DNA from: a virus
Length of the DNA stretch: 34,745 nucleotides
Virus genome (UHGV): UHGV-0163337
Reading direction: 5' to 3' (one strand)
The notes under the pieces were generated by a model that worked only from the letters and a program-made list of their open reading frames with translations, did not search any database and was not told the origin of the DNA. The stretch's first letter is position 1. Each line of letters opens with the position of its first letter. The translations under genes and the position numbers were made by a program. Positions 584 through 34,445 of this stretch are shown in pieces.

Positions 584-1597
584 TTACTCTACTGTGGACA
601 CTGTGTGGACACTCTCGGCCTCAGTACCACCTCTTAGCGGATTAAGAGAAATGGCGTCCTGAAGGTACTCTGGCGCAAAATGAGCGTAAACCATAGTTTG
701 CTCAATCCGCGTGTGACCTAGTATCCGTTGTAGCGTGATAATACTTCCTCCATTAATCATGAAATGAGTGGCAAAGCTGTGCCTTAGTGCATGTGTGGCT
801 TGCCCCATTGGCAAATCCGGTTTTATTGCTTTCATTGTTCGTCTGAAGCGAGGGTAATCAGCATCAGGGAATAAAAAACCTCGTTTGTTATCCGCGATCA
901 TTTTGGCAACAGCCTCTGAGATCGGGACGGTGCGTGGTTTGTTTGTTTTCGTTTTAACAAACGTGACGCGGTTATGGATGATATTTTCTGCTTTCAAACG
1001 AGCTGCTTCTCCCCAACGTGCTCCAGTACTCAGGCAAAGAATCGCAATCTTTTTGTTGTCGCCGTCAAGAGCAGCAAGCAGTAAGGCAATTTCTTCCTGC
1101 GTGAGATAGCCTGTGTCTGGTTTTTCCTCCTTAAGCCTTTTTGTCCCTCTGATAGGGTGCTCACCAAAGAATAACTCCGCTTCAATCAGGGCTGTAAACA
1201 TGCCGCTAATACATGTTAAATCACGATTGATACTCGAAGGTTTAATACCCTGACTTCTTCGGGTGGCGCAGTACTGGCTGATAAGCGATTTCGTAATTTG
1301 AAATGCGCATGGGTCATTCGTTATTTTTGTGAAGATTTCAATTTTTCCAAGATTAGATTTCCCATGCTCTTCGTGTTTACCCTTTAAATCCCACCAGATC
1401 TGTGTCAGCTCCGACAGACGTCGCTTGTCTGTTGGTTTTGATAGCCATTCTTTATTGTGGTGGTTGTACAACGTGTATTTCTCGAAAGCGACAGCTTCGC
1501 TTTTCTTATCAAACTTCCTACGGATGCGTTTTCCATTACGTCCAGTAGGGCGGATGTCCACTTCATATCGACCATCATCGAGTTTTTTGATTGCCAT
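584..1597 (-). CDS. int: tyrosine integrase (P2 Int family)
   Basis: 337 aa; C-terminal catalytic region HALRHSFATHF...LGH...TMVYAH (R-H-R-Y tyrosine recombinase signature); adjacent to att core and C repressor. Confidence 0.93.
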   Translation of the reverse strand: MAIKKLDDGRYEVDIRPTGRNGKRIRRKFDKKSEAVAFEKYTLYNHHNKEWLSKPTDKRRLSELTQIWWDLKGKHEEHGKSNLGKIEIFTKITNDPCAFQITKSLISQYCATRRSQGIKPSSINRDLTCISGMFTALIEAELFFGEHPIRGTKRLKEEKPDTGYLTQEEIALLLAALDGDNKKIAILCLSTGARWGEAARLKAENIIHNRVTFVKTKTNKPRTVPISEAVAKMIADNKRGFLFPDADYPRFRRTMKAIKPDLPMGQATHALRHSFATHFMINGGSIITLQRILGHTRIEQTMVYAHFAPEYLQDAISLNPLRGGTEAESVHTVSTVE

Positions 1598-6432: not shown

Positions 6433-6648
6433 GTAAAAACACAACGTGATTTGATATGGCATTGAATGGCTTATGCGGAGCAGTTATGGGGCAGCAGAAG
6501 GTCAATAGCATGCTGAATTAGAAGGCTAAATGCTATTGAGTGACTAGCATGTCGGTAAGGACGGCCGTTTGATCCGGGTCATAAAAGGCCATCCATTTAG
6601 TCTAATAAAATCATTGCGGGTAACCTTATGTCGACGCATAATTCGTCT

Positions 6649-6722
6649 TGAGCGAAGTCTTGTCAGTCTTTCATCGTATTGATGATGGGCGCAAAAAAAC
6701 CACCCTGGCAGGTGGTTTTTTT
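6649..6722 (+). ncRNA. candidate small RNA (promoter to terminator, no ORF)
   Basis: TTGCGG (6614-6619), 17-nt spacer, CATAAT (6637-6642); ~74 nt to the intrinsic terminator; 5' end carries the 15-nt TTGAGCGAAGTCTTG (6648-6662) repeated at 6912-6926. Confidence 0.35.
6693..6722. terminator. bidirectional intrinsic terminator
   Basis: A7-CCACC-ctggca-GGTGG-T7: GC stem flanked by A-run and T-run, so hairpin plus U-tract on either strand. Confidence 0.8.
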
Positions 6723-6734
6723 GTTTGAAGCATA

Positions 6735-6848
6735 TTAAAGCATAATGCTGACATTGATATTACTGACGTTTACTGACAAACCACTCGGACTACCGTTTGG
6801 ATAGCCAAAGAGGGCCAGAACGAGAATGCAGTAATAGCATTTCTTCAT
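6735..6848 (-). CDS. small hydrophobic peptide (37 aa), candidate type I toxin-like
   Basis: ATG at 6848 with AGGAGG SD 4 nt upstream; MKKCYYCILVLALFGYPNGSPSGLSVNVSNINVSIML; ends 13 nt before the bidirectional terminator; AT-rich. Confidence 0.4.
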   Translation of the reverse strand: MKKCYYCILVLALFGYPNGSPSGLSVNVSNINVSIML

Positions 6849-7326
6849 ATTGCCTCCTGTAAGTAGAGGGCAACTTCCACCGGTATATGCGCTTCTTAGG
6901 TGGAATGACTTTTGAGCGAAGTCTTGCCCTGAAATAATGCTCTGTTTAAACGCAAAGTGATTTGGCATATCACCGAACAGAGAGCCGGAAAAACACAACA
7001 TATAGTATGTCGTTGTTTCTAGACATACATTCTATGTTGTGTAACAAGGGCTTTGCATTAAACATGTTTGAGATTTTATTGATGTAGCTCAAAGTAAAAA
7101 ACAGAGACTACGGATGATAAGGTCTTGAAAGCAATGTAAATTTTTTAAAGTTGCCAATTGCTTAAAAATGTACAGTTGCGGTATGGCGTACTTAAAAAGC
7201 TATGCATGCAACAAGTGAATGTTTTTGCATGCGTTGGGGATGTCCGTTCAGGCTGCGTGCGGTCAGGACTGGTGCGGATCCATAGTATCTATGCAACTGC
7301 ATTAAAACCGCCCCGTGAAGCGGGCG

Positions 7327-7345
7327 GGCGAGGCGGGGAAAGCAC
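7327..7345. other. cos: cos site (19-nt cohesive end sequence, P2-type)
   Basis: GGCGAGGCGGGGAAAGCAC matches the P2 cohesive end as I recall it; GC-rich block between A and Q as expected in a prophage. Confidence 0.7.
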
Positions 7346-7499
7346 TGCGCGCCAAACGATGTCGCTGGCTTGCAGCTACCCGGTTGAAATTCTTATTTTT
7401 TTGTTGCATTATTCTTAGCGCACCAGCGATTCGCTTGGTATGCGGCAGTCAACAACATTAAATTGTCAGTTTTTGCTTTTACAAAAAAGCGTCCACTAT

Positions 7500-7660
7500 G
7501 GACCTATCAGCGAGGCCCCACCGTCGTCAACTACGATGGTGCCGTAGCCGACGACATTACGTACGGTCGAAAGATAGCAGAGGCTGTTGCTGGCAATTGT
7601 TGATGTAAGCATCTCTGCTGTTCCACCCTTGAGTATGGGAAGACCGTACGTAACTTTGAA
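7500..7660 (+). ncRNA. candidate structured leader / retron msr-msd-like ncRNA upstream of RT
   Basis: Hairpin 7523-7555 (13-bp imperfect stem); nested inverted repeats TACGTACGGTC (7558-7568)/GACCGTACGTA (7642-7652) and AGCAGAG (7576-7582)/CTCTGCT (7613-7619); boundaries not determined. Confidence 0.3.
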
Positions 7661-8861
7661 TTTGAATGGTATGTTTATGGATAAATTTAAACCATACAGC
7701 AAATCCAATGCTCCTATCACAACACTTGAAAAGTTGTCAAAGGCTTTATCGATTTCTGTTGAAGAGCTTAAAGCTATTGCAGAACTACCATTAGATGAGA
7801 AATATACTCTAAAAGAAATTCCCAAAATTGACGGAAGCAAACGGATTGTCTACTCCCTGCATCCTAAAATGAGATTATTACAGAGTAGAATTAATAAACG
7901 TATTTTTAAGGAATTGGTTGTTTTTCCTTCATTTTTGTTTGGTTCAGTCCCCAGTAAAAATGATGTTTTAAATTCTAACGTCAAGCGTGACTATGTTTCA
8001 TGCGCAAAGGCTCATTGTGGAGCAAAAACAGTTCTCAAGGTGGATATAAGTAATTTTTTCGATAATATCCATAGAGATCTGGTTAGGAGCGTGTTTGAGG
8101 AGATATTGCATATTAAGGATGAGGCTCTTGAATACTTGGTGGATATATGTACTAAGGATGATTTTGTCGTACAGGGGGCCTTAACATCAAGCTATATAGC
8201 AACTTTGTGTTTATTCGCTGTTGAAGGGGATGTGGTAAGACGTGCGCAGAGGAAAGGACTTGTTTATACGCGTTTGGTAGATGATATTACCGTGTCATCT
8301 AAAATAAGTAATTATGATTTTTCTCAAATGCAAAGCCATATAGAGAGGATGCTTTCTGAGCATGACTTGCCGATAAATAAGCACAAAACTAAAATATTTC
8401 ACTGTTCATCTGAACCTATAAAAGTACATGGTTTAAGAGTTGACTATGACTCACCTCGACTACCATCCGATGAAGTCAAAAGAATCAGGGCATCTATACA
8501 TAATTTGAAATTACTGGCGGCAAAAAATAACACAAAAACAAGTGTTGCATACAGAAAAGAATTCAATAGATGTATGGGGAGAGTGAATAAGCTTGGCCGT
8601 GTTGGGCATGAAAAATATGAATCATTCAAGAAACAGTTGCAGGCAATAAAACCGATGCCATCTAAAAGAGATGTTGCTGTGATTGATGCAGCTATAAAAA
8701 GTTTAGAGTTGTCGTATTCGAAAGGTAATCAAAATAAACATTGGTATAAAAGAAAATATGATTTGACGAGATATAAGATGATTATTCTTACTCGCTCTGA
8801 ATCATTTAAAGAAAAACTGGAGTGTTTTAAATCTAGATTGGCATCTTTAAAACCATTATGA
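7635..8861 (+). CDS. retron-type reverse transcriptase
   Basis: RT catalytic box YTRLVDDITV; retron-like AKAH (NAxxH position), VDISNFFDN and KVHGL (VTG position); first ATG 7635; alternatives TTG 7587 or ATG 7671; AT-rich. Confidence 0.8.
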   Translation: MGRPYVTLNLNGMFMDKFKPYSKSNAPITTLEKLSKALSISVEELKAIAELPLDEKYTLKEIPKIDGSKRIVYSLHPKMRLLQSRINKRIFKELVVFPSFLFGSVPSKNDVLNSNVKRDYVSCAKAHCGAKTVLKVDISNFFDNIHRDLVRSVFEEILHIKDEALEYLVDICTKDDFVVQGALTSSYIATLCLFAVEGDVVRRAQRKGLVYTRLVDDITVSSKISNYDFSQMQSHIERMLSEHDLPINKHKTKIFHCSSEPIKVHGLRVDYDSPRLPSDEVKRIRASIHNLKLLAAKNNTKTSVAYRKEFNRCMGRVNKLGRVGHEKYESFKKQLQAIKPMPSKRDVAVIDAAIKSLELSYSKGNQNKHWYKRKYDLTRYKMIILTRSESFKEKLECFKSRLASLKPL

Positions 8862-9565
8862 ATGCAAATATTAGACTTCTCAAATATATTGTCGGTGTGT
8901 CGTCAGCTCTTTTTTTGATTTTTTCGCTAATTTCTCTTTTTGAAACTATTCAGAATGAAAAGCTATATGAGCGTGATATATGCTTCGATAGCCAGTGCTT
9001 AAAATTTTTTGCGGAAAAAACATCTGGTATAGTAATGTATTTTCAGGCGTTTGGATGGCTTATAACAACTTTTGTTACCGTTTTTGGTGTTATGATTGCT
9101 TTGATGACATATAACGCTGGAGTTAAAAATAATAATAATAGTAATTACACTAGTCATCTGACGATGTTTAGAGAATTTGCAAGTGCTGAGTTAACTAAAA
9201 GAAGTAGCATCTATCCAGAGAAAGTTAATTTTTTTAGATGGTATAGGGTTATGTTCCCTGAAGCGCAAGGCGGTGATATATCTGTTTCGAGAGATTATCT
9301 AGAAATAATATCTAGAATCAAATGTGTTATTGAGGAAGCCAATGCACATATTACAGAGGAAAGTAAAGACTATAAATATAAAACTCATCAGAGAAAAATG
9401 ATGGCTGTTTTGGATGAAATCGGTATATCGATTAGTAATGGGCCCAAAAATATTTTTATCGAGGTTGAGAGTCAAATTTTGGATTATATCGATACTATTA
9501 ATTTGTCATTTTGTCATTCCTCATCAGTGATAGAATTAAGTAGAGTAAAAAGGAAGTATATATAG
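8858..9565 (+). CDS. 2-TM membrane protein, putative effector partnered with the RT
   Basis: ATGA overlap with RT stop; 235 aa; hydrophobic helices ~10-28 and ~58-84, then ~150-aa soluble domain; AT-rich. Confidence 0.7.
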   Translation: MNANIRLLKYIVGVSSALFLIFSLISLFETIQNEKLYERDICFDSQCLKFFAEKTSGIVMYFQAFGWLITTFVTVFGVMIALMTYNAGVKNNNNSNYTSHLTMFREFASAELTKRSSIYPEKVNFFRWYRVMFPEAQGGDISVSRDYLEIISRIKCVIEEANAHITEESKDYKYKTHQRKMMAVLDEIGISISNGPKNIFIEVESQILDYIDTINLSFCHSSSVIELSRVKRKYI

Positions 9566-9568
9566 TTA

Positions 9569-9595
9569 AGTTGGCGGGGTTGCATTCCGCCAACT
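9569..9595. terminator. bidirectional terminator between convergent 2-TM gene and Q
   Basis: AGTTGGCGG-ggttgcatt-CCGCCAACT hairpin followed by TTTATATATTT. Confidence 0.7.
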
Positions 9596-9607
9596 TTATA
9601 TATTTAC

Positions 9608-17898: not shown

Positions 17899-18328
17899 TG
17901 CCGTCACGGTGCTGAAAACTAACCCCGATATGCTGCGGATATTCGTGGATAACGGGAGTATTGCCTCCACGCTGGCGGCGTCGTTGTCATTCGAAAAGCG
18001 TTACACGCTCAATGTCATTGTGACCGACTTTACCGGTGATTTTGACCTGCTCATCGTGCCGGTACTGGCGTGGCTGCGGGAAAATCAGCCCGACATCATG
18101 ACCACCGACGAAGGCCAGAAAAAGGGCTTCATGTTTTATGCAGACATCAACAATGACAGCAGCTTTGATGTCAGCATCAGCCTGATGCTGACCGAGCGCA
18201 CGCTGGTCAGTGAGGTCGACGGCGCACTGCATGTGAAGAATATCCCGGAACCCCCGCCGCCGGAGCCGGTCACCCGCCCGATGGAGCTTTATATCAATGG
18301 CGAACTGGTGAGCAAGTGGAATGAATGA
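17861..18328 (+). CDS. R: tail completion protein R
   Basis: 155 aa, same as P2 gpR. Confidence 0.88.
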   Translation: MLKPDSLRRALTDAVTVLKTNPDMLRIFVDNGSIASTLAASLSFEKRYTLNVIVTDFTGDFDLLIVPVLAWLRENQPDIMTTDEGQKKGFMFYADINNDSSFDVSISLMLTERTLVSEVDGALHVKNIPEPPPPEPVTRPMELYINGELVSKWNE

Positions 18329-18773
18329 GTTTAAGCGTTTTGAAGACCGGCTGGCCGGACTGATTGAATCGCTGTCACCGTCAGGGCGTCGGCGACTGAG
18401 TGCCGAACTGGCGAAACGTCTGCGGCAGAGTCAGCAGCGTCGGGTGATGGCACAGAAAGCCCCGGACGGCACACCCTACGCGCCACGCCAGCAGCAGAGA
18501 GCCAGAAAAAAGACCGGTCGTGTTAAGCGAAAAATGTTTGCGAAACTTATCACCAGTCGTTTTTTGCATATCCGCGCCAGCCCGGAACAGGCATCAATGG
18601 AGTTTTACGGCGGGAAGTCACCGAAAATCGCCAGTGTGCATCAGTTCGGTCTGTCGGAAGAAACCTGGAAAGACGGTAAGAAAATTGATTATCCGGCGCG
18701 TCCTCTGCTCGGCTTTACCGGTGAGGATGTGCAGATGATTGAAGAGATTATCCTGGCTCACCTTGAGCGTTAG
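18321..18773 (+). CDS. S: tail completion protein S
   Basis: 150 aa, same as P2 gpS. Confidence 0.88.
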   Translation: MNEFKRFEDRLAGLIESLSPSGRRRLSAELAKRLRQSQQRRVMAQKAPDGTPYAPRQQQRARKKTGRVKRKMFAKLITSRFLHIRASPEQASMEFYGGKSPKIASVHQFGLSEETWKDGKKIDYPARPLLGFTGEDVQMIEEIILAHLER

Positions 18774-18803
18774 TTTTATCCAGGCAGAGGCTGATGCGCA
18801 ATT

Positions 18804-18838
18804 AAACATTGAGCGGCTGTGCTGGTCGCTCAATGTTT
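18804..18838. terminator. hairpin between convergent S and reverse-strand cargo gene
   Basis: 12-bp perfect inverted repeat AAACATTGAGCG / CGCTCAATGTTT with 11-nt loop. Confidence 0.6.
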
Positions 18839-18844
18839 AGAGGA

Positions 18845-19630
18845 TTATGAGTGGTTTTTATTTGATGATTTGTATTCTACAACTTTTTTATTGGCGTAAA
18901 GGAATTTTGTATATGACAGAAGTATAACCAGACCTGAAGTGAAATAGACGAGGGATATTATTAATAATGTTTTTCTGTGGCTGTTATTATCTTTAATCTC
19001 CTGACTTAACCATTTGGAGTCCTCCTCGTTTAGCTGTAAGAGCTTATTGCAGGCGATTGCAGGAAGTGTGTCTGTTACAAAAGTGTTCTGCAGTCTCTTG
19101 CAATCGGCAATGCTAAAAGCTTTATAGAACTTATCTGTTTTATTGTCGGAGAACAAAAGAACCTTGTCATTATAAACATGGTACATCATATTTTTATATG
19201 GTATGGCTATGGCATCCTCTACTATGGCAGATTGCTCGTTGTGTATGCAACATGCGAAGGTAATATAAAGAATTCCGGCCAGGACTGCACTCATTGTTTT
19301 TGTGATGCATGGCGGTTCTGTTATGTCTCCCCAGAAGCGAGTAAGGAAAAAATCCGATGTTTTTAGTTTTCCATCAATCAACCCCTGCTGTATCATTTTC
19401 ACATCTTTGATGCCTGATACATTGATTCCGTTAATTATTTTAAATAGTTGAATGTCGCGCCACTCGCGGTCCAGTCTTTTTAATTTTTTATCTGAATATC
19501 CAAATTTGAAATAATGTGCAATAAGCCTCATAAGGTTACTTTTACCAAAGCTAAAAAATGCTAATACTACAAAGACCAAAAGATACAAGACGATTAGCTC
19601 CCACACATTAGTCACATTATAGCTGACCAT
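18845..19630 (-). CDS. AT-rich membrane protein of unknown function (cargo at P2 orf30 position)
   Basis: 261 aa; strong SD AAGGAGAG; hydrophobic segments at N-terminus, middle and C-terminus; opposite strand to flanking late genes; low GC. Confidence 0.65.
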   Translation of the reverse strand: MVSYNVTNVWELIVLYLLVFVVLAFFSFGKSNLMRLIAHYFKFGYSDKKLKRLDREWRDIQLFKIINGINVSGIKDVKMIQQGLIDGKLKTSDFFLTRFWGDITEPPCITKTMSAVLAGILYITFACCIHNEQSAIVEDAIAIPYKNMMYHVYNDKVLLFSDNKTDKFYKAFSIADCKRLQNTFVTDTLPAIACNKLLQLNEEDSKWLSQEIKDNNSHRKTLLIISLVYFTSGLVILLSYTKFLYANKKVVEYKSSNKNHS

Positions 19631-19713
19631 TACGCTCTCCTTGAATGTTGTCTGGTGGTTCTACAAATGAATCCAGATAGCATAACTTTTATATATTGTG
19701 CAATCTCACATGC

Positions 19714-20349
19714 ATGAACACTCTCGCAAATATTCAGGAACTCGCGCGCGCACTGCGCAACATGATTCGTACTGGCCTTGTCGTCGAAACCAACCTTAAA
19801 GCCGGTCGCTGCCGTGTGCAGACCGGCGGCATGTGCACTGACTGGCTTCAGTGGCTGACCCATCGTGCCGGACGTTCACGCACATGGTGGGCACCTTCGG
19901 TGGGGGAGCAGGTGCTGATTCTGTCCGTGGGCGGCGAACTCGACACGGCGTTTGTTCTGCCGGGGATTTATTCCGGTGATAACCCCGCGCCGTCTGCGTC
20001 GGCGGATGCCCTGTACATCCGTTTCCCTGACGGGGCGGTGATTGAGTATGAACCCGAAACCAGTGCGCTCACGGCAAGCGGAAATAAAACGGCCAGCGTG
20101 ACGGCTTCTGATTCTGTTACCGCCACGGTGCCGGTGGTCATGGTGAAAGCGTCAACTCGCATCACCCTGGACACACCGGAGGTGGTCTGCACCAACAAGC
20201 TGACTACCGGCACGCTGGAAGTGCAGAAGGGCGGGACGATGCGCGGCAACATTGAACACACCGGCGGTGAACTCTCATCAAACGGTAAGGTACTGCATAC
20301 CCATAAACACCCCGGCGACAGCGGCGGCACAACCGGGGGACCTCTATGA
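19714..20349 (+). CDS. V: baseplate spike/assembly protein V
   Basis: 211 aa from ATG 19714 (ORF track begins at TTG 19696); P2 gpV 211 aa. Confidence 0.88.
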   Translation: MNTLANIQELARALRNMIRTGLVVETNLKAGRCRVQTGGMCTDWLQWLTHRAGRSRTWWAPSVGEQVLILSVGGELDTAFVLPGIYSGDNPAPSASADALYIRFPDGAVIEYEPETSALTASGNKTASVTASDSVTATVPVVMVKASTRITLDTPEVVCTNKLTTGTLEVQKGGTMRGNIEHTGGELSSNGKVLHTHKHPGDSGGTTGGPL

Positions 20350-25502: not shown

Positions 25503-25606
25503 AGGAGCGGAAGTAGCTAACAGCTCTTAGTGTTGATTAATGAGGAGCAGGCCGCTATCGCTAATTCCGCTTGCTGATGTATGGTAAGTACTGATAACCT
25601 TGATTT

Positions 25607-26458
25607 ATGATACTTAGTTTATACATCATATTATGGATGATCATTATGTCGCGTAGCTTATACCCAACGACCTTGTTTCATTTTACTGAAAAGTTAGATA
25701 CCTTATTTGAGATACTTGACTCAAGTTATTTTCGAATTTCTTTCGCTAGAGAGTTTATACAAGGCCAGAGCACGAATAGAAATTTCGGTATACCGATGGT
25801 TTCATTTTGTGATATCAGGCTAACACAGCTTACCCAGCATACTGAAAGTTATGGCCATTATGGCATAGGATTATCAAAAGATTGGGCAAACGAAAATGGA
25901 CTTAATCCAGTAATTTACATGTCCAAGCACTCTTCTGTTTTTGATAATTATAATCTAGAGATTAGGCGTTTAAAAGCAGAAGTTAATAAGTTATTAAAGC
26001 ATTTGGACGAAATAAAATCTTCAGGAACAACATCTCAATTAACTAATGCAAAGCGGAAATATGACTCGGCGATTCTTAGTTACAAGAAAATTGTAGATCC
26101 TTTGCGATATATGAAAAATTACCAGGCAACTTTGAAACGACGCAATGGTCAGGAGAAACCTAACTATATTTTTGCAGATGAGAGGGAGTGGCGATTTGTT
26201 CCAGATATAGAAAAATCAATTGGAAAACCAGTGATCGCTGCTTCGAAAAATATATCAACTCAAGATGGCAAGAGAAAATATAACGAATATTATGATGATG
26301 ACAGGTTACCCTTTTCACATAAGGATATTAAATATGTCATTGTAGAGCATGAAAGTGATGTTGAAAAGATGATGGACTTTCTGCATATAAAGTATGGTTC
26401 AAAAAGTAGCTTGATTCCAAGGGTTCTCTCAACCGAATTGATAGCGAATGATATGTAA
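25607..26458 (+). CDS. AT-rich cargo protein of unknown function (possible Abi-like), P2 Z/fun position
   Basis: 283-aa ORF (alternative ATG 25646 would remove the hydrophobic N-terminal 13 aa); very low GC; no catalytic motif recognised by eye. Confidence 0.6.
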   Translation: MILSLYIILWMIIMSRSLYPTTLFHFTEKLDTLFEILDSSYFRISFAREFIQGQSTNRNFGIPMVSFCDIRLTQLTQHTESYGHYGIGLSKDWANENGLNPVIYMSKHSSVFDNYNLEIRRLKAEVNKLLKHLDEIKSSGTTSQLTNAKRKYDSAILSYKKIVDPLRYMKNYQATLKRRNGQEKPNYIFADEREWRFVPDIEKSIGKPVIAASKNISTQDGKRKYNEYYDDDRLPFSHKDIKYVIVEHESDVEKMMDFLHIKYGSKSSLIPRVLSTELIANDM

Positions 26459-26774
26459 TTTAAGCTCTGTTTTTGCCTAAATTATCTATGCAATGCTTCC
26501 TTTTTGATACTTCATCGTGCTCTTATTGTGTTTAACGCTAAAACTAACCTACTCCCCGTGTTTCACATAGACCGCTATTAGCAATGTCCGCTGCGTGCGA
26601 AGAGCGGACATTACTAACATAGTGCCCAGAAGCTTTAAGGGAAGTAAGTCAAGTCCAAAAGTGCGGTTAAAGTAATGCTAATCTTTCCATTGAATGAGTG
26701 GATTGAGTATTAGAATTACATCTCCATAGCTACTTAAGCGGATTATTTAAAATTTTAATTAAGAGGTTCTAATT

Positions 26775-27779
26775 ATGGATAGATTTGAAATAAAACTTAA
26801 TGAAATCAATGAAATTCTTTCAAAGAATCAATTGGGGCTTATCTATGATTTTATAAATGATAGAGATAATGGTCTCGTACTGCCGTTTTTTAGTAAATAC
26901 ATGGACTCTGTTCGAAAATTAGATCTGGATTTTTGCATTACAACCAACTCACATTTTCAATGCGGCATTATTTATGATGAAAAATTGATATTTATGTCTT
27001 ATGGCACATTTGATAGACTATGTAAGTTATCTGACTTGATTTTTCGGTCAGGGATGATAACAGGGAAAAGTACTAATTTAAACTTTTATGACTTGCATCT
27101 CGTTACTAATCCATTTGTTGGGTTTAACAATGAGACAAGAGAGGAAAGTGAGTCCGAATCACACTTATTTATGTTTATTCTTGATTGTCTAATGCTGTTT
27201 ATAGTTAGTCACGAAGTAGGCCATTTCATTAATAAACATGGCGACCGAGCAAAAAAGCAATCTATTGACACTATCTTTGATGATGTTTTAGGACATAAAA
27301 AAATCAATAGCGCAGAAATAATATCAAGCCACGCAAGAGAATTAGTTGCAGATGGTTTTGCTCTTAATATTGTAAAAAAACATGTACAGTCTGCATTTGA
27401 TCAGAAGGCATCTTATCTTAATAACTTGCTTGATTTTTATAGCAGCAAGGAAGGCGGAATTGCATTTTCATTGCTATTAATACTGTGCTACTTCAAACTT
27501 TCTGATGGCTTATCACCCCATGAACATTTTCAATCGACACATCCCTCAACGGCGGCACGAGTTCGATTTATTCTCAGTTGTCATATTGAATCATTAGTCA
27601 ATGAGGATGAAGAAAAAACTTTTGGATTTTACTATGGTTTAATCATAACTCAATTGAAATCAATATTTGCATCTATGGGAGATGACTTTGAGTTAACTTG
27701 GATAAAGGATACGAACTCACCTGAAATGACCGAGTGGTTTAATAATGTTTATAAAGAGCATCCAAAATGGTTAGCATAA
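26775..27779 (+). CDS. HExxH zinc-metallopeptidase-like protein (cargo), possibly Lit-like phage-exclusion protease
   Basis: 334 aa; AAGAGG SD 8 nt before ATG; HEVGH at residues 146-150 followed by ELVAD ~40 aa downstream; very low GC. Confidence 0.6.
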   Translation: MDRFEIKLNEINEILSKNQLGLIYDFINDRDNGLVLPFFSKYMDSVRKLDLDFCITTNSHFQCGIIYDEKLIFMSYGTFDRLCKLSDLIFRSGMITGKSTNLNFYDLHLVTNPFVGFNNETREESESESHLFMFILDCLMLFIVSHEVGHFINKHGDRAKKQSIDTIFDDVLGHKKINSAEIISSHARELVADGFALNIVKKHVQSAFDQKASYLNNLLDFYSSKEGGIAFSLLLILCYFKLSDGLSPHEHFQSTHPSTAARVRFILSCHIESLVNEDEEKTFGFYYGLIITQLKSIFASMGDDFELTWIKDTNSPEMTEWFNNVYKEHPKWLA

Positions 27780-28019
27780 TACCTCTTATATAATGCTGAT
27801 GGTATATTAATATTGAATTGATAATCCTGAATGTCGCTGACTTTAATAAAGCATTGAAATTAGAAAAAGTGAAGTTTTATAATGCTCTTTAATAATTCAT
27901 GTCACTCAACAGCGAAAAGCGTGAAGGTCTGCTCCTCGCTCAAAGCAGACTGTCAGAATTGATAGCGTTTGGGCTATGTAAATTGTCAGTCGGAAAATGA
28001 GTGAGTACAAATCAGGACA

Positions 28020-28046
28020 GGCGGGCGAATTGCCCGCCTTTTCTTT
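28020..28046 (+). terminator. intrinsic terminator closing the cargo island before FI
   Basis: GGCGGGC-gaatt-GCCCGCC stem-loop followed by TTTTCTTT. Confidence 0.8.
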
Positions 28047-28142
28047 ATCTGTTGTTTCATCCACTGACCAGCCAGGTCAAATAGCGTCTCATGCACTGCC
28101 CAACAGAAAATAGTTGCACCCATTAACCACGGAGTTAAACGG

Positions 28143-32802: not shown

Positions 32803-33282
32803 ATGATGCTCGCGTTAGGTATGTTTGTTTTTATGCGCCAGACGCTGCCACACCAGACCATGCAGCGTGAATCAGATTATCGCTGGCCGTCAAATTCCCG
32901 TATCGGTAAACGGGATGCCTTTCAGTTTCTCGGTGTTGGCGAGGAAAACATCACGCTTGCCGGTGTGCTTTATCCCGAGCTGACCGGCGGAAAGCTGACG
33001 ATGACTACGCTCAGGCTGATGGCAGAGGAAGGTCGGGCGTGGCCGTTGCTGGATGGCACCGGCATGATTTACGGCATGTATGTCATCAGCAGGGTGAGTG
33101 AAACAGGGAGTATTTTCTTTGCAGACGGCACACCCCGAAAAATTGATTTTACGCTGTCGCTCACCCGCGTTGATGAATCACTGGCCGCGCTTTATGGCGA
33201 TATCGGTAAACAGGCGGAATCGCTCATCGGTAAGGCTGGCAGTATGGCGACTAAATTCACGGGTATGACGGGGGCGGGATAA
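32803..33282 (+). CDS. U: tail protein U
   Basis: 159 aa, same as P2 gpU. Confidence 0.9.
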   Translation: MMLALGMFVFMRQTLPHQTMQRESDYRWPSNSRIGKRDAFQFLGVGEENITLAGVLYPELTGGKLTMTTLRLMAEEGRAWPLLDGTGMIYGMYVISRVSETGSIFFADGTPRKIDFTLSLTRVDESLAALYGDIGKQAESLIGKAGSMATKFTGMTGAG

Positions 33283-34445
33283 TGCTGGATGCGCTGACAT
33301 TTGATGCAGGCAGTACGCTGACGCCGGATTACATGCTGATGCTCGACAGCAGGGATATTACCGGCAATATCAGCGACCGTCTGATGAGCATGACCCTGAC
33401 GGATAACCGGGGCTTTGAGGCTGACCAGCTTGATATTGAACTGAACGATGCCGACGGGCAGGTCGGGCTGCCGGTTCGTGGCGCTGTCCTGACGGTGTAT
33501 ATCGGCTGGAAAGGTTTTGCCCTGGTATGCAAAGGGAAATTTACCGTTGATGAGGTTGAACACCGGGGCGCGCCGGATGTGGTTACCATCCGCGCCCGGA
33601 GTGCAGATTTTCGCGGGACGCTCAATTCCCGCCGGGAAGGCTCATGGCATGACACCACGCTCGGTGCGATTGTTGAGGCGATAGCCTCCCGTAACAGGCT
33701 GGAAGCCAGTGTCGCTCCGTCACTGGCCGGAATTAAAATCCCGCACATCGACCAGTCGCAGGAGTCTGATGCAAAATTCCTGACCCGCCTTGCTGAACGC
33801 AACGGCGGTGAGGTGTCGGTAAAAATGGGAAAATTGTTGTTTCTCAAAGCGGGGCAGGGGGTGACGGCCAGCGGTAAAAAAATCCCGCAGATTACCATCA
33901 CCCGCAGCGACGGCGACCGTCATCATTTTGCGATTGCTGACCGTGGAGCCTACACCGGCGTAACGGCAAAGTGGTTACACACCAAAGACCCGAAGCCGCA
34001 AAAGCAGAAGGTAAAACTGAAACGCAAAAAGAAAGAGAAACACCTGCGCGCACTGGAGCACCCGAAAGCGAAACCGGTCACGCAGAAGAAAGCGCCAAAA
34101 GTACCGGAAGCGCGCGAAGGTGAATACATGGCCGGTGAGGCTGACAACGTTTTTGCCCTGACTACGGTATATGCCACGAAAGCGCAGGCCATGCGCGCCG
34201 CTCAGGCGAAGTGGGACAAACTGCAACGGGGCGTTGCGGAGTTCTCCATCAGCCTTGCCACTGGTCGGGCAGATATTTACACGGAAACACCGGTCAGAGT
34301 GTCTGGCTTTAAGCGCGTCATAGACGAGCAGGACTGGACAATCACTAAGGTGACACATTTTCTGAATAATAGCGGCTTCACGACGTCCTTGGAGCTTGAG
34401 GTCAGGCTTTCTGATGTGGAGTATGAAACAGAAGATGATGAGTGA
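33282..34445 (+). CDS. D: tail protein D (late control D family)
   Basis: 387 aa, same as P2 gpD; ATGA overlap with U. Confidence 0.92.
   Translation: MLDALTFDAGSTLTPDYMLMLDSRDITGNISDRLMSMTLTDNRGFEADQLDIELNDADGQVGLPVRGAVLTVYIGWKGFALVCKGKFTVDEVEHRGAPDVVTIRARSADFRGTLNSRREGSWHDTTLGAIVEAIASRNRLEASVAPSLAGIKIPHIDQSQESDAKFLTRLAERNGGEVSVKMGKLLFLKAGQGVTASGKKIPQITITRSDGDRHHFAIADRGAYTGVTAKWLHTKDPKPQKQKVKLKRKKKEKHLRALEHPKAKPVTQKKAPKVPEAREGEYMAGEADNVFALTTVYATKAQAMRAAQAKWDKLQRGVAEFSISLATGRADIYTETPVRVSGFKRVIDEQDWTITKVTHFLNNSGFTTSLELEVRLSDVEYETEDDE

What the first reader, a model, noticed from the sequence alone, without database searches (positions are those of the whole stretch)
18774..19713. Reverse-strand AT-rich membrane protein inserted between tail genes S and V
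A 261-aa ORF with a strong SD runs antisense to the flanking late operon and is bracketed by a 12-bp perfect hairpin on the S side. It is very AT-rich and predicts hydrophobic segments at both ends and mid-protein. This is where P2 carries the non-essential orf30, as I recall. Such antisense membrane-protein morons in late operons are typically expressed from the prophage and often mediate superinfection exclusion or abortive infection; the function here is unknown.
Basis: partly seen in the sequence, partly recalled or inferred. Interest (0 to 1): 0.55.

Follow-up and report, generated by a model that had tools for sequence, protein, structure and literature searches.

The report
Phage P2 orf30 membrane-protein gene
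This is the already catalogued, non-essential gene orf30 of phage P2: an AT-rich, backwards-pointing gene for a probable three-helix inner-membrane protein, whose function is still unknown and is most plausibly protection of the lysogen against other phages.

Summary
A 261-codon ORF lies at 18845-19630 on the minus strand, with an AAGGAG ribosome-binding site. It is 36% GC against 54-60% in its flanks, and it sits antisense between tail genes S and V of a complete P2-like prophage. A 13-bp hairpin follows its stop codon.

It is the ortholog of P2 orf30 (80% amino-acid identity, same position, annotated "nonessential"; PHROG 2407, unknown function), so the feature is already known.

New here:
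- Orf30 belongs to a very divergent family of about 250-270 aa (17-38% identity). One member passes the Pfam DUF6216 threshold.
- All members share three hydrophobic helices, a conserved positively charged loop (predicted cytoplasmic) and a second loop with a conserved cysteine pair (predicted periplasmic).
- Distant members from Sodalis, Pectobacterium, Cronobacter, Gibbsiella, Yersinia and Buttiauxella occupy the same S-V site, antisense and AT-rich.
- The S-V site is a cargo hotspot. It is empty in about half of relatives, and elsewhere it holds recognised defence proteins.

No fold, Pfam or PADLOC match reveals a mechanism, no clear promoter was found, and no experiment exists. My best guess is a prophage-expressed inner-membrane block on entry of foreign phage genomes (confidence about 0.3). 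Abortive infection is the main rival.

The parts
18774..19713 (.). AT-rich replaceable segment between the S stop codon and the V start codon (the 'orf30 cassette')
   Evidence: GC is 35-41% here against 54-62% in the flanks. Alignment with the empty-site phage PhiR44_1 loses similarity right after the S stop and regains it at the V ATG. The site is empty in 42 and filled in 31 of 83 related loci.
18803..18839 (.). 13-bp perfect inverted repeat with an 11-nt loop, between the convergent S and orf30 stop codons; possibly a bidirectional terminator
   Evidence: RNA fold gives -24.6 (plus) and -17.5 (minus) kcal/mol, z -4.5 and -4.1. The homologous P2 sequence is annotated 'putative rho-independent terminator for O operon'. 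No T-run follows on either strand, and the terminator scan did not call it.
18845..19630 (-). orf30 ortholog, 261 aa; the stop codon is 18845-18847
   Evidence: ORF listing. PHROG 2407, E = 7.4e-136, full length. 80% amino-acid identity to P2 Orf30, AAD03281. dN/dS 0.45.
19547..19606 (-). Predicted transmembrane helix 1 (aa 9-28); the 8-residue N-tail has no Lys or Arg and is predicted periplasmic
   Evidence: Hydropathy 2.5. The N-tail carries 0-2 K/R, and none in most members. The AF2 model has a helix at 8-40. dN/dS is 1.2 among close alleles.
19319..19456 (-). Most conserved block of the family (aa 59-104: D-x-Q-L-[FY]-[KR]-x3-G-[IV]-N-V-x4-D-A ... G87), within the net-positive loop 29-107 that is predicted cytoplasmic
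   Evidence: This block has the highest column conservation in the 21 diverse sequences. The loop has 15 K/R against 9 D/E in the query. dN/dS is 0.27.
19241..19309 (-). Predicted transmembrane helix 2 (aa ~108-130)
   Evidence: Hydropathy 1.55-1.75 in the query and 1.6-3.1 in relatives where it is detected; it falls below the 1.5 cut-off in P0006 and P0008. AF2 helix at 109-134.
18971..19240 (-). Predicted periplasmic alpha/beta domain (aa 131-220) with the conserved cysteine pair C177 and C194
   Evidence: C194 is invariant and C177 is present in 95% of the diverse members. The loop charge is near neutral. AF2 gives four strands at 141-173 and helices at 174-198. dN/dS is 0.26.
18911..18970 (-). 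Predicted transmembrane helix 3 (aa 221-240), followed by a Lys-rich cytoplasmic tail (aa 241-261) with conserved N247 and K254
   Evidence: Hydropathy 2.2. The tail has 5 K/R against 1 D/E. AF2 gives one long helix at 202-260.
19637..19642 (-). Shine-Dalgarno sequence AAGGAG, 6 nt upstream of the orf30 ATG
   Evidence: Read directly from the sequence.
19645..19672 (+). Late-activator (Ogr-type) binding site of the divergent pV late promoter, 14-42 nt upstream of the orf30 ATG
   Evidence: 27 of 28 bases match the site annotated in P2 as 'activator binding site; activation of pV promoter'. A CACACAAC-type half-site recurs upstream of most Orf30-family genes in distant phages.
18321..18773 (+). 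Tail completion gene S (left flank)
   Evidence: 96.7% amino-acid identity to P2 gpS.
19714..20349 (+). Baseplate spike gene V (right flank)
   Evidence: 92.9% amino-acid identity to P2 gpV.

Best explanation
The segment is the P2 orf30 accessory cassette. It is a horizontally acquired, AT-rich, single-gene unit that replaces the short S-V spacer of a P2-like prophage and is read antisense to the late tail operons.

Predicted protein (not shown experimentally): an inner-membrane protein with three transmembrane helices, N-terminus out and C-terminus in. It has a conserved cytoplasmic helical domain of about 80 residues. It also has a periplasmic alpha/beta domain of about 90 residues, probably stabilised by a C177-C194 disulfide.

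Mechanism I consider most likely (inferred): the lysogen makes the protein at a low level, possibly damped by H-NS because the DNA is so AT-rich. The protein then acts like a superinfection-exclusion factor. It sits in the inner membrane and interferes with the periplasm-to-cytoplasm step of genome delivery by heterologous phages, without killing the cell.

What is shown: identity with P2 orf30, the cassette boundaries, the presence/absence polymorphism, purifying selection on the frame, the family and its fixed location, and the defence-rich nature of the site. What is inferred: membrane topology, expression in the lysogen, and the anti-phage role and its mechanism.
For: Identity and cassette.

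Real coding gene: dN/dS is 0.45 overall and 0.26-0.27 in the two loop domains.

Membrane architecture is conserved over 17-38% identity. The AF2 model built on 24 sequences has pLDDT 82 and pTM 0.71. A conserved cysteine pair in the non-positive loop fits a periplasmic disulfide.

Context. The S-V site is a cargo hotspot. In 80 species-representative genomes I counted about 23 empty sites and about 36 with AT-rich cargo of 0.8-3.2 kb. That cargo includes PADLOC hits to PDC-S06, NsnA/NsnC, Ppl, PD-T4-2_A, PDC-S33 (a RelA/SpoT protein), mad3, SspE/GmrSD, caspase and AriA/GajA-like ATPases. The same prophage carries a type IV retron-like RT plus 2TM pair and an AbiGi homolog in its two other AT-rich islands.

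Lineage link. In 6 of the 10 distant homologs whose contigs I looked up, and in 6 further survey loci, the gene lies antisense between S and V of a P2-like prophage.

Closest functional analogue. P22 SieA is a prophage-expressed inner-membrane protein with three predicted transmembrane domains. It has three sequence types less than 30% identical that share a TM pattern and a cytoplasmic motif, and it blocks DNA delivery (PMC10883804).

A stand-alone membrane protein with a sizeable periplasmic domain and no enzyme or sensor domain fits an entry block better than a cytoplasmic sensor-effector.
Against: There is no experimental evidence of any kind.

No consensus sigma-70 promoter lies upstream. 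The 83-bp space before V is occupied by the late promoter pV, so expression in the lysogen is unproven.

From my own knowledge of classical P2 genetics, not checked here: P2 lysogens plate P2 vir and the hetero-immune P2 Hy dis. The known exclusion phenotypes of P2 lysogens map to old, tin and fun(Z). Orf30 therefore does not visibly exclude P2-type phages or the standard laboratory phages under laboratory conditions.

The hotspot also carries non-defence cargo (T6SS Hcp, Tlde1, a fimbrial protein), so guilt by association is weak.

The family is most conserved in the cytoplasmic loop, not the periplasmic domain.
Confidence: 0.3

Rival explanations
1. Abortive-infection membrane effector. Orf30 senses an infection cue through its conserved cytoplasmic domain or through envelope perturbation. 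It then oligomerises by its long TM3 helix and depolarises or permeabilises the inner membrane, killing the infected cell before progeny are released.
For: The hotspot context is the same as for the main explanation. The strongest family conservation is in the predicted cytoplasmic block 59-104. AF2 predicts a 59-residue continuous helix at 202-260 that could drive oligomerisation. The same prophage already uses a 2TM membrane effector in its retron-like system. The extreme AT-richness would allow H-NS silencing of a toxic gene; a 2026 preprint on H-NS silencing of immunity mentions a 'DUF6216 gene' and P2-like prophages, but it could not be read here.
Against: PADLOC found no hit for Orf30 or four of its relatives. 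No sensor, nuclease, NTPase or other signalling domain is present. It is a single gene with no conserved partner; neighbours differ between loci. A disulfide-bearing periplasmic domain is not needed for a cytoplasmic trigger. The gene is intact and common (464 of 5426 complete E. coli genomes), although that does not exclude toxicity.
Confidence: 0.2
2. A lysogenic-conversion envelope protein that does not act on phages. Examples would be an immunity-type protein against a membrane-targeting bacteriocin, tailocin or T6SS effector, or a modulator of a host envelope or stress pathway that raises lysogen fitness.
For: The S-V site also carries T6SS Hcp, Tlde1-domain and fimbrial cargo in other genomes. 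Small inner-membrane proteins of 3-4 helices are a typical form of pore-forming colicin immunity proteins (my own knowledge). No lab-phage exclusion phenotype has been assigned to orf30 (my own knowledge). One distant homolog sits next to a DsbA-family gene and another next to an acetyltransferase, on short non-phage-looking contigs.
Against: There is no homology to any immunity, transporter or enzyme family. No cognate toxin gene lies next to orf30 in the window or in most loci. The family is tied tightly to P2-like phages rather than to toxin loci.
Confidence: 0.15
3. A function in P2's own life cycle rather than for the lysogen. Examples would be a membrane factor that modulates lysis timing, protects progeny from abortive adsorption, or helps prophage maintenance or induction. 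This could explain why the family stays locked to one site next to the spike gene V.
For: Family members at 17-38% identity keep the same position and orientation next to V in phages whose V proteins are 58-84% identical. The orf30 5' end abuts the Ogr-activated pV promoter, so transcription of the two genes could be coupled or mutually exclusive.
Against: The P2 record annotates orf30 as nonessential. About half of close relatives lack any gene here and exist as isolated, plaque-forming phages, for example PhiR44_1, D8 and HQ103. The gene is antisense to the late operons and has foreign base composition. Orf30 divergence correlates only weakly with divergence of the flanking genes (Spearman 0.21-0.34, against 0.80 for V versus J).
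Confidence: 0.1
4. A silent passenger. The gene is retained because the cassette also supplies the O-operon terminator and the pV promoter, and the protein itself has no current function.
For: The replaced segment contains both the annotated terminator and the pV activator site. No promoter for orf30 was recognised. At least one relative (L015) appears frameshifted. dN/dS is about 1 in TM1 and in TM3 plus tail.
Against: The frame is open in 28 of 31 loci and across a family down to 17% identity, with conserved motifs and a conserved cysteine pair. dN/dS is 0.26-0.27 in both loop domains. Empty-site phages manage with a spacer of about 70 bp, so the gene is not needed to supply signals.
Confidence: 0.08

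Closest known systems
Bacteriophage P2 orf30 (AAD03281; UniProt name 'Uncharacterized 30.4 kDa protein in S-V intergenic region'; PHROG 2407)
   Same: Same length (261 aa) and 80% amino-acid identity. Same position and antisense orientation between S and V. Same hairpin and the same pV activator site. Same low GC.
   Different: It is an allelic variant only. Alleles in coliphages range from 75% to 100% identity. The window's exact protein is already present on 245 E. coli contigs.
Pfam DUF6216 (PF19723), an uncharacterised family with a 270-position profile
   Same: Ten of 24 Orf30-family members hit it. The Sodalis homolog P0023, itself matched by the Orf30 profile at E = 1.8e-11, passes the gathering threshold (28.9 against 27.3 bits) over its full length. 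Length and three-hydrophobic-segment layout are similar across the aligned family.
   Different: The window protein itself does not hit the model at E up to 1. The link is transitive. DUF6216 has no known function, so the link names the family without explaining it.
Phage P22 SieA (superinfection exclusion A)
   Same: [quoted passage not shown] It has several sequence types less than 30% identical that share a TM pattern and a conserved cytoplasmic motif (PMC10883804). Per my own recollection, not checked here, sieA also lies within the virion-gene region of P22.
   Different: No sequence similarity was detected (PHROGs and Pfam). SieA is 162-164 aa and lacks loop domains of 80-90 residues. 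Its exclusion activity is shown experimentally, while Orf30's is not. SieA excludes P22-like phages, whereas P2 lysogens are not known to exclude P2-type phages (my own knowledge).
The other P2 lysogenic-conversion genes in variable loci: old, tin and fun(Z)
   Same: They are AT-rich, non-essential, horizontally acquired cargo at fixed variable sites of P2-like phages. The orf30 site is listed with the Z and TO regions as one of three such sites (PMC3091744). Those two sites are established defence hotspots (PMC9122126; bioRxiv 10.1101/2024.10.15.618418; PMC13586616).
   Different: old, tin and fun have assigned exclusion phenotypes and orf30 has none. The orf30 site was not analysed in the 2022 hotspot study (no mention of gpS, gpV or baseplate).

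Membership tests
P2 orf30 orthologous group / PHROG 2407 | Full-length sequence similarity to P2 Orf30 | tested here: met
   PHROG 2407 at E = 7.4e-136 over 1-261 of 261; 80% identity to AAD03281 without gaps.
P2 orf30 orthologous group / PHROG 2407 | Synteny: antisense between tail completion gene S and spike gene V of a P2-like phage | tested here: met
Pfam DUF6216 (PF19723) | Score at or above the gathering threshold (27.3 bits) | tested here: not met
   The window protein gives no hit at E up to 1. The relative P0023 scores 28.9 bits over its full length, and 10 of 24 family members hit more weakly. The protein is therefore a remote relative, not a formal member.
Moron (autonomous accessory gene cassette in a prophage) | Foreign base composition and presence/absence polymorphism between otherwise collinear phages | tested here: met
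   36% against 54-60% GC. 42 empty and 31 filled sites among 83 loci.
Moron (autonomous accessory gene cassette in a prophage) | Own promoter and terminator allowing expression from the repressed prophage | tested here: inconclusive
   A stable hairpin lies 5 nt after the stop codon but has no T-run. No consensus sigma-70 promoter was found; the best candidates match 8 of 12 positions with 19-nt spacers.
Superinfection-exclusion inner-membrane proteins (P22 SieA type) | Sequence or structural homology to a characterised Sie protein | tested here: not met
   No such PHROG or Pfam hit. No structural neighbour.
Superinfection-exclusion inner-membrane proteins (P22 SieA type) | Inner-membrane location | not testable with these tools
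   Prediction only: three conserved hydrophobic helices, a positive-inside charge pattern and the AF2 model.
Superinfection-exclusion inner-membrane proteins (P22 SieA type) | Expressed in the lysogen and blocks DNA entry of a superinfecting phage without cell death | not testable with these tools
   This needs RNA-seq of a lysogen and infection assays.
Known anti-phage defence systems (PADLOC-DB v2) | Match to any defence protein model | tested here: not met
   0 families for Orf30 and for the relatives P0023, P0035, P0006 and P0042.
P2-like S-V accessory-gene hotspot cargo | Located at a site that holds diverse, unrelated, AT-rich genes in related phages | tested here: met
   There are at least four occupancy states in coliphages and dozens of different cargos across Enterobacterales. 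The site was named as a horizontal-transfer locus in PMC3091744.

The most novel reading that the evidence does not exclude
Orf30 and its DUF6216-like relatives form a P2-lineage-wide, fast-evolving family of single-gene inner-membrane anti-phage proteins locked to one genomic position. That would be a new superinfection-exclusion or defence family. It could have been missed in decades of P2 genetics because the gene is silenced (for example by H-NS) or because it targets phages outside the classical test set. The S-V site would then be a third, under-explored defence hotspot of P2-like phages.
Probability: 0.4. Interest if true: 0.55.

Novelty: already known. Interest (0 to 1): 0.35.

Why it matters
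orf30 is one of the few genes of the model phage P2 that still has no function. The same cassette is present in about 8.5% of complete E. coli genomes (464 of 5426).

This work gives a testable handle on it. The family extends across Enterobacterales P2-like prophages, always at the S-V site. It has a predicted three-helix topology and a short list of conserved residues to mutate: D59, Q61, G68, N70, D76, G87, C177, C194, I212, N247 and K254. It also has a remote link to DUF6216.

If the gene proves to be anti-phage, it adds a new single-gene membrane defence and establishes the S-V site as a further reservoir for defence discovery. If it does not, the result still documents that this site also exchanges non-defence cargo.

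Tried and rejected
- Direct annotation gave nothing. Pfam returned only a 13-bit chance hit to cytochrome bd subunit II, PADLOC and NCBIfam returned nothing useful, and PHROGs returned only an unknown-function family.
- The word-indexed homolog search found only four clusters at 75-100% identity. Even with a family profile it added just one distant member and one partial sequence. Only the exhaustive HMMER search exposed the family.
- AlphaFold2 with four close sequences was useless (pLDDT 54). With 24 diverse sequences it was good (pLDDT 82).
- The PDB sequence-profile search returned only chance hits.
I used gpV as an anchor instead.
- Promoter search found no convincing orf30 promoter in the window or in 10 distant loci.
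- Rfam found no RNA family anywhere in the window.
- Plus-strand small ORFs inside the segment (62 aa and 49 aa) were set aside. The minus-strand frame is the one kept open and under selection.
- A vertical co-divergence model was rejected as the main pattern, because the correlation with flanking genes is weak.
- Literature: no paper assigns a function to orf30. A September 2026 preprint that mentions a 'DUF6216 gene' together with P2-like prophages and H-NS could be detected but not read.
Full report
**1. What is in the sequence**

The window is a complete P2-like prophage. It runs from the integrase at 584-1597 (minus strand) through the replication, capsid, lysis and tail genes to gene D at 33282-34445.

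Between the tail completion gene S (18321-18773, plus) and the spike gene V (19714-20349, plus) lies a minus-strand ORF at 18845..19630. It starts with ATG and encodes 261 aa. AAGGAG sits 6 nt before the ATG.

The ORF is 36% GC, against 50% for the window and 54-62% for the adjoining 400-bp windows.

Hydropathy peaks lie at about aa 9-28, 108-130 and 221-240.

A 13-bp perfect inverted repeat (arms 18803-18815 and 18827-18839) lies 30 nt after the S stop and 5 nt after the orf30 stop. As RNA it folds at -24.6 kcal/mol on the plus strand and -17.5 on the minus strand, and 0 of 200 shuffles fold as well.

The only correction is that the hairpin stem has 13 bp, not 12.

**2. Identity**

Megablast of 18600-19900 against phage genomes finds 76 records. 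Twenty of them cover the whole query, including bacteriophage P2 at 91.6% identity.

The P2 record annotates the homologous features as follows:
- gpS
- a 'putative rho-independent terminator for O operon', which is the hairpin
- 'orf30, nonessential' on the opposite strand
- an 'activator binding site; activation of pV promoter'
- gpV

The window protein is 80% identical to P2 Orf30 without gaps. It matches PHROG 2407 ('unknown function') at E = 7.4e-136. UniProt calls the P2 protein 'Uncharacterized 30.4 kDa protein in S-V intergenic region'. All other source names are 'hypothetical protein', and the window's exact sequence occurs on 245 E. coli contigs.

The segment is present at 80% or higher nucleotide identity in 464 of 5426 complete E. 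coli genomes, always on the chromosome.

The feature is thus already known and annotated, but it has no assigned function. Full-text searches found no paper that assigns one.

**3. Cassette boundaries and the S-V site**

Alignment with a phage that lacks the gene (PhiR44_1) shows that similarity ends at the S stop codon and resumes at the V ATG. It includes the hairpin and the pV activator site, which matches the annotated P2 site at 27 of 28 bases (19645-19672).

*Close relatives.* I examined 83 loci: 80 IMG/VR contigs found with gpS plus 3 reference phages. Spacer lengths below are tblastn hit-to-hit distances and include the S stop codon.

| S-V spacer | Loci | Content |
|---|---|---|
| about 70 bp | 42 | empty |
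| 944 bp (one of 1015 bp) | 31 | orf30 |
| about 1270 bp | 6 | unrelated antisense 357-aa membrane protein |
| about 1040 bp | 3 | unrelated antisense 247- or 268-aa protein |
| 254 bp | 1 | GC-rich, no ORF of 45 aa or more |

All ORF-bearing cargo is 33-36% GC. The 247-aa form fits the 741-bp ORF that the R18C paper describes at this site (PMC6823313).

*Wider survey.* I anchored on gpV in one genome per species and obtained 80 loci across Enterobacterales. By my count, about 23 have an empty spacer of 66-80 bp. About 36 carry cargo of 0.8-3.2 kb, mostly AT-rich at 32-42% GC.

Scanning 36 cargo proteins (34 from the GTDB survey plus two from the IMG/VR coliphage loci L035 and L081) gave two kinds of hit:
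- PADLOC hits to PDC-S06, NsnA/NsnC, Ppl, PD-T4-2_A, PDC-S33 (a RelA/SpoT protein), mad3, PDC-M49A, SspE/GmrSD, caspase and AriA/GajA-like ATPases.
- Pfam hits to non-defence families: T6SS Hcp, Tlde1, fimbrial protein, Gp49, 8xMP and an ion channel.

The S-V site is therefore a true accessory-gene hotspot with a substantial defence content.

This agrees with earlier literature. One paper names orf30, Z/fun and the TO region as the three horizontal-transfer loci of P2-like phages (PMC3091744). [quoted passage not shown] The main hotspot studies dealt with other sites.

**4. The protein family**

The word-indexed search found only close orthologs. An exhaustive HMMER search of 1.84 billion cluster representatives, using a profile of four orthologs, found 42 proteins. 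About 20 of these are full-length, 250-271 aa.

A 24-sequence alignment shows 18-34% identity to the query. G68, G87, C194 and I212 are invariant. In the 21 diverse sequences D76 is also invariant, and G29, Q61, C177, N247 and K254 are present in at least 90%.

Ten of the 24 members hit Pfam DUF6216. The Sodalis member P0023 passes the gathering threshold (28.9 against 27.3 bits) across its full length. The window protein itself does not hit. Orf30 is therefore a remote, transitively linked relative of DUF6216, which is itself uncharacterised.

The architecture is shared across the family, except that the middle hydrophobic segment of P0006 and P0008 falls below my hydropathy cut-off:
- a short N-tail with few or no Lys/Arg (0-2; none in most members)
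- TM1
- a net-positive loop of about 75-90 residues
- TM2
- a near-neutral loop of about 80-94 residues that carries the two conserved cysteines
- TM3
- a Lys-rich tail

By the positive-inside rule this gives an N-out/C-in topology, with the cysteine loop in the periplasm where a disulfide can form. This is an inference.

AlphaFold2 with the 24-sequence alignment gives pLDDT 82 and pTM 0.71. The model has these elements:
- helix 8-40
- helices 48-67, 74-86 and 91-94
- helix 109-134
- four strands at 141-173
- helices 174-198
- one long helix at 202-260

With only four close sequences the model was poor (pLDDT 54).

**5. Where the family lives**

I looked up contigs for ten distant members.
- Six lie antisense between S and V of P2-like prophages: P0042 (E. 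coli), P0006 (a metagenome), P0023 (Sodalis), P0024 (Pectobacterium), P0036 (Gibbsiella) and P0032 (Cronobacter).
- One lies next to a phage portal gene (P0035).
- Three are on short contigs: P0017 next to DsbA, P0018 next to an acetyltransferase, and P0026 with no called neighbours.

Six further members turned up at S-V sites in the gpV survey, in Enterobacter, Yersinia frederiksenii, Pseudescherichia, Rosenbergiella and two Buttiauxella genomes.

These genes stay at 30-34% GC in prophages of 54-59% GC.

Across 13 loci the V proteins are 58-97% identical and the S proteins 43-99%. Orf30-family proteins are only 17-38% identical outside the P2 clade. Their divergence correlates weakly with that of the flanking genes (Spearman 0.21-0.34), whereas V against J gives 0.80.

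The family is thus tied to this site in the P2 lineage. It either evolves much faster than the tail genes or is exchanged among alleles.

**6. Selection**

I compared 22 distinct coliphage alleles by Nei-Gojobori estimates computed in my own script.

| Gene or region | dN/dS |
|---|---|
| orf30, whole gene | 0.45 |
| S | 0.05 |
| V | 0.17 |
| orf30 N-tail plus TM1 | 1.2 |
| orf30 cytoplasmic loop | 0.27 |
| orf30 TM2 | 0.55 |
| orf30 periplasmic domain | 0.26 |
| orf30 TM3 plus tail | 0.97 (low dS) |

Mean dS is 0.126 for orf30, against 0.092 for S and 0.081 for V.

The gene is therefore a functional coding sequence with constrained soluble domains and loosely constrained membrane helices. One relative (L015) appears frameshifted.

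**7. Expression signals**

No consensus sigma-70 promoter was found on the minus strand upstream of orf30. The best candidates match 8 of 12 positions with 19-nt spacers.

The 83 bp between the orf30 ATG and the V ATG hold the pV late promoter. Its activator site lies 14-42 nt from the orf30 start. A CACACAAC-type half-site of that box recurs upstream of most distant family members.

Expression of orf30 in the lysogen is therefore unverified. If its promoter overlaps pV, late activation and orf30 transcription could interfere with each other; this is an inference.

The hairpin lacks a T-run on both strands and was not called by the terminator scan, although the P2 record annotates it as a putative terminator.

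**8. Mechanism**

Nothing here demonstrates a function. These observations bear on it:
- The cassette is autonomous and AT-rich, and it sits in a defence-rich hotspot.
- It is a stand-alone membrane protein with no enzymatic or sensor domain.
- It has a sizeable, probably disulfide-bonded periplasmic domain.
- The family diversifies quickly but keeps its architecture.
- The same prophage carries defence cargo in both of its other AT-rich islands. These are a type IV retron-like RT plus 2TM pair at 7587-9565 and an AbiGi homolog at 25607-26458.

The closest functional analogue I could document is P22 SieA (PMC10883804). It is an inner-membrane protein with three predicted transmembrane domains, expressed from the prophage. 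It has three sequence types less than 30% identical that share a TM pattern and a cytoplasmic motif, and it blocks DNA delivery.

I therefore rank the explanations as follows:

| Explanation | Confidence |
|---|---|
| Inner-membrane superinfection-exclusion-type block on genome entry | about 0.3 |
| Membrane abortive-infection effector | about 0.2 |
| Envelope or immunity function not aimed at phages | about 0.15 |
| Role in P2's own cycle | about 0.1 |
| Silent passenger | about 0.08 |

The main evidence against the first two is the absence of any homology to known systems and the lack of a promoter. In addition, from my own knowledge of P2 genetics (not checked here), P2 lysogens plate P2 vir and P2 Hy dis, and their known exclusion phenotypes map to old, tin and fun.

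One lead could not be followed. A September 2026 bioRxiv preprint, 'H-NS silences antiviral immunity through 3D chromatin compaction', contains the phrase 'DUF6216 gene' once and 'P2-like' four times, but it is not held for reading.

**9. Verdict**

The gene and its site are already known, so the novelty class is 'already known'.

The added value is threefold: the definition of a divergent Orf30/DUF6216-like three-helix membrane family locked to the S-V site across Enterobacterales, a confident structural model with no known fold neighbour, and evidence that the S-V site carries recognised defence cargo.

Interest is moderate (0.35). The gene is a long-unassigned part of a model phage, and its function is now easy to test, but nothing here is surprising to a specialist.

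Noticed in passing
window 6600-9600 (genes 7587-8861 + and 8858-9565 +): This AT-rich island (32-39% GC) lies between replication gene A and portal gene Q, the classical old/tin hotspot. It carries a reverse transcriptase matching PADLOC RT_IV (E = 7.6e-177; Pfam RVT_1) and an overlapping 235-aa protein matching 2TM_IV (E = 5.2e-85), so it looks like a type IV retron-like defence system. No retron ncRNA was found by Rfam at gathering thresholds.
   Followed up: partly
window 25600-28100 (genes 25607-26458 + and 26775-27779 +): This AT-rich island (34-39% GC) lies between tail-fibre assembly gene G and sheath gene FI, the Z/fun hotspot. It carries an AbiGi homolog (Pfam E = 7.4e-31, PADLOC E = 9.8e-42) followed by a 334-aa protein with a weak Peptidase_M48 match (E = 1.1e-4) and no PADLOC hit.
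   Followed up: partly
L035, L042, L055, L059, L069, L080 (S-V gap about 1270 bp); L043, L053, L081 (gap about 1040 bp): Close P2-like coliphages carry two other antisense, 33-35% GC cargo genes at the S-V site instead of orf30. One encodes a 357-aa protein with hydrophobic segments near residues 220-290. The other encodes a 247- or 268-aa soluble-looking protein, probably the ORF16 described in phage R18C. Neither has a significant Pfam or PADLOC hit.
   Followed up: partly
L094:2279-3367 (-), Escherichia sp. MOD1-EC7003: Here the S-V site of a close P2-like prophage holds a 363-aa RelA/SpoT-domain protein (Pfam E = 1.8e-21; PADLOC PDC-S33 E = 3.1e-16), which suggests a toxSAS/CapRel-like candidate defence gene at the orf30 position.
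   Followed up: no
L002:1675-1740 (PhiR44_1) and the other empty-site loci: Phages without cargo have an S-V spacer of 66-75 bp. It contains a TGT-N12-AC box directly after the S stop and a GC-rich hairpin (GCCGCCGG...CCGGCGGC) just upstream of V. The late promoter region is thus entirely different in sequence from that of orf30-bearing phages, so the cassette swap also replaces pV.
   Followed up: partly
L015 (IMG/VR 2778261223_000018), S-V gap 943 bp: This orf30 copy is 1 bp shorter than the others and aligns only over residues 1-220, so it is probably a frameshifted pseudogene.
   Followed up: no
L090:1341-2135; L087:991-1743; L173:991-1767: Some distant Orf30/DUF6216-like genes lie outside the S-V site. 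One is next to a phage portal gene, possibly the other P2 hotspot. One is next to a DsbA-family gene, and one is next to a GNAT acetyltransferase. All three are on short metagenomic contigs.
   Followed up: partly
L129:1056-2525 (+), L177:6877-8214 (-), L175:6800-7432 (-), L178:4965-5899 (+): In several genomes the Orf30-family gene shares the S-V site with a second, variable cargo: a 490-aa ORF in L129 (one of the scanned cargo proteins is caspase-like, but the scan did not say which), a DUF4062 protein, an ORF6N protein, or a 180-aa protein plus a DUF7480 lipoprotein-like pair. Cargo modules therefore appear to stack at this site. The family gene is usually next to V, but it is next to S in L178.
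   Followed up: no
window 19631-19760 and the upstream regions of 10 distant family genes: A CACACAAC-type motif, one half of the TGT-N12-ACA late-activator box of pV, lies 14-100 nt upstream of most Orf30-family start codons. No conserved sigma-70 promoter for the family gene is visible, so how these genes are transcribed is unexplained.
   Followed up: partly
literature: bioRxiv 10.64898/2026.09.05.749240: A September 2026 preprint on H-NS silencing of anti-phage immunity contains 'DUF6216 gene' once and 'P2-like' four times. It may bear directly on this gene family, but it could not be opened with the tools.
   Followed up: partly
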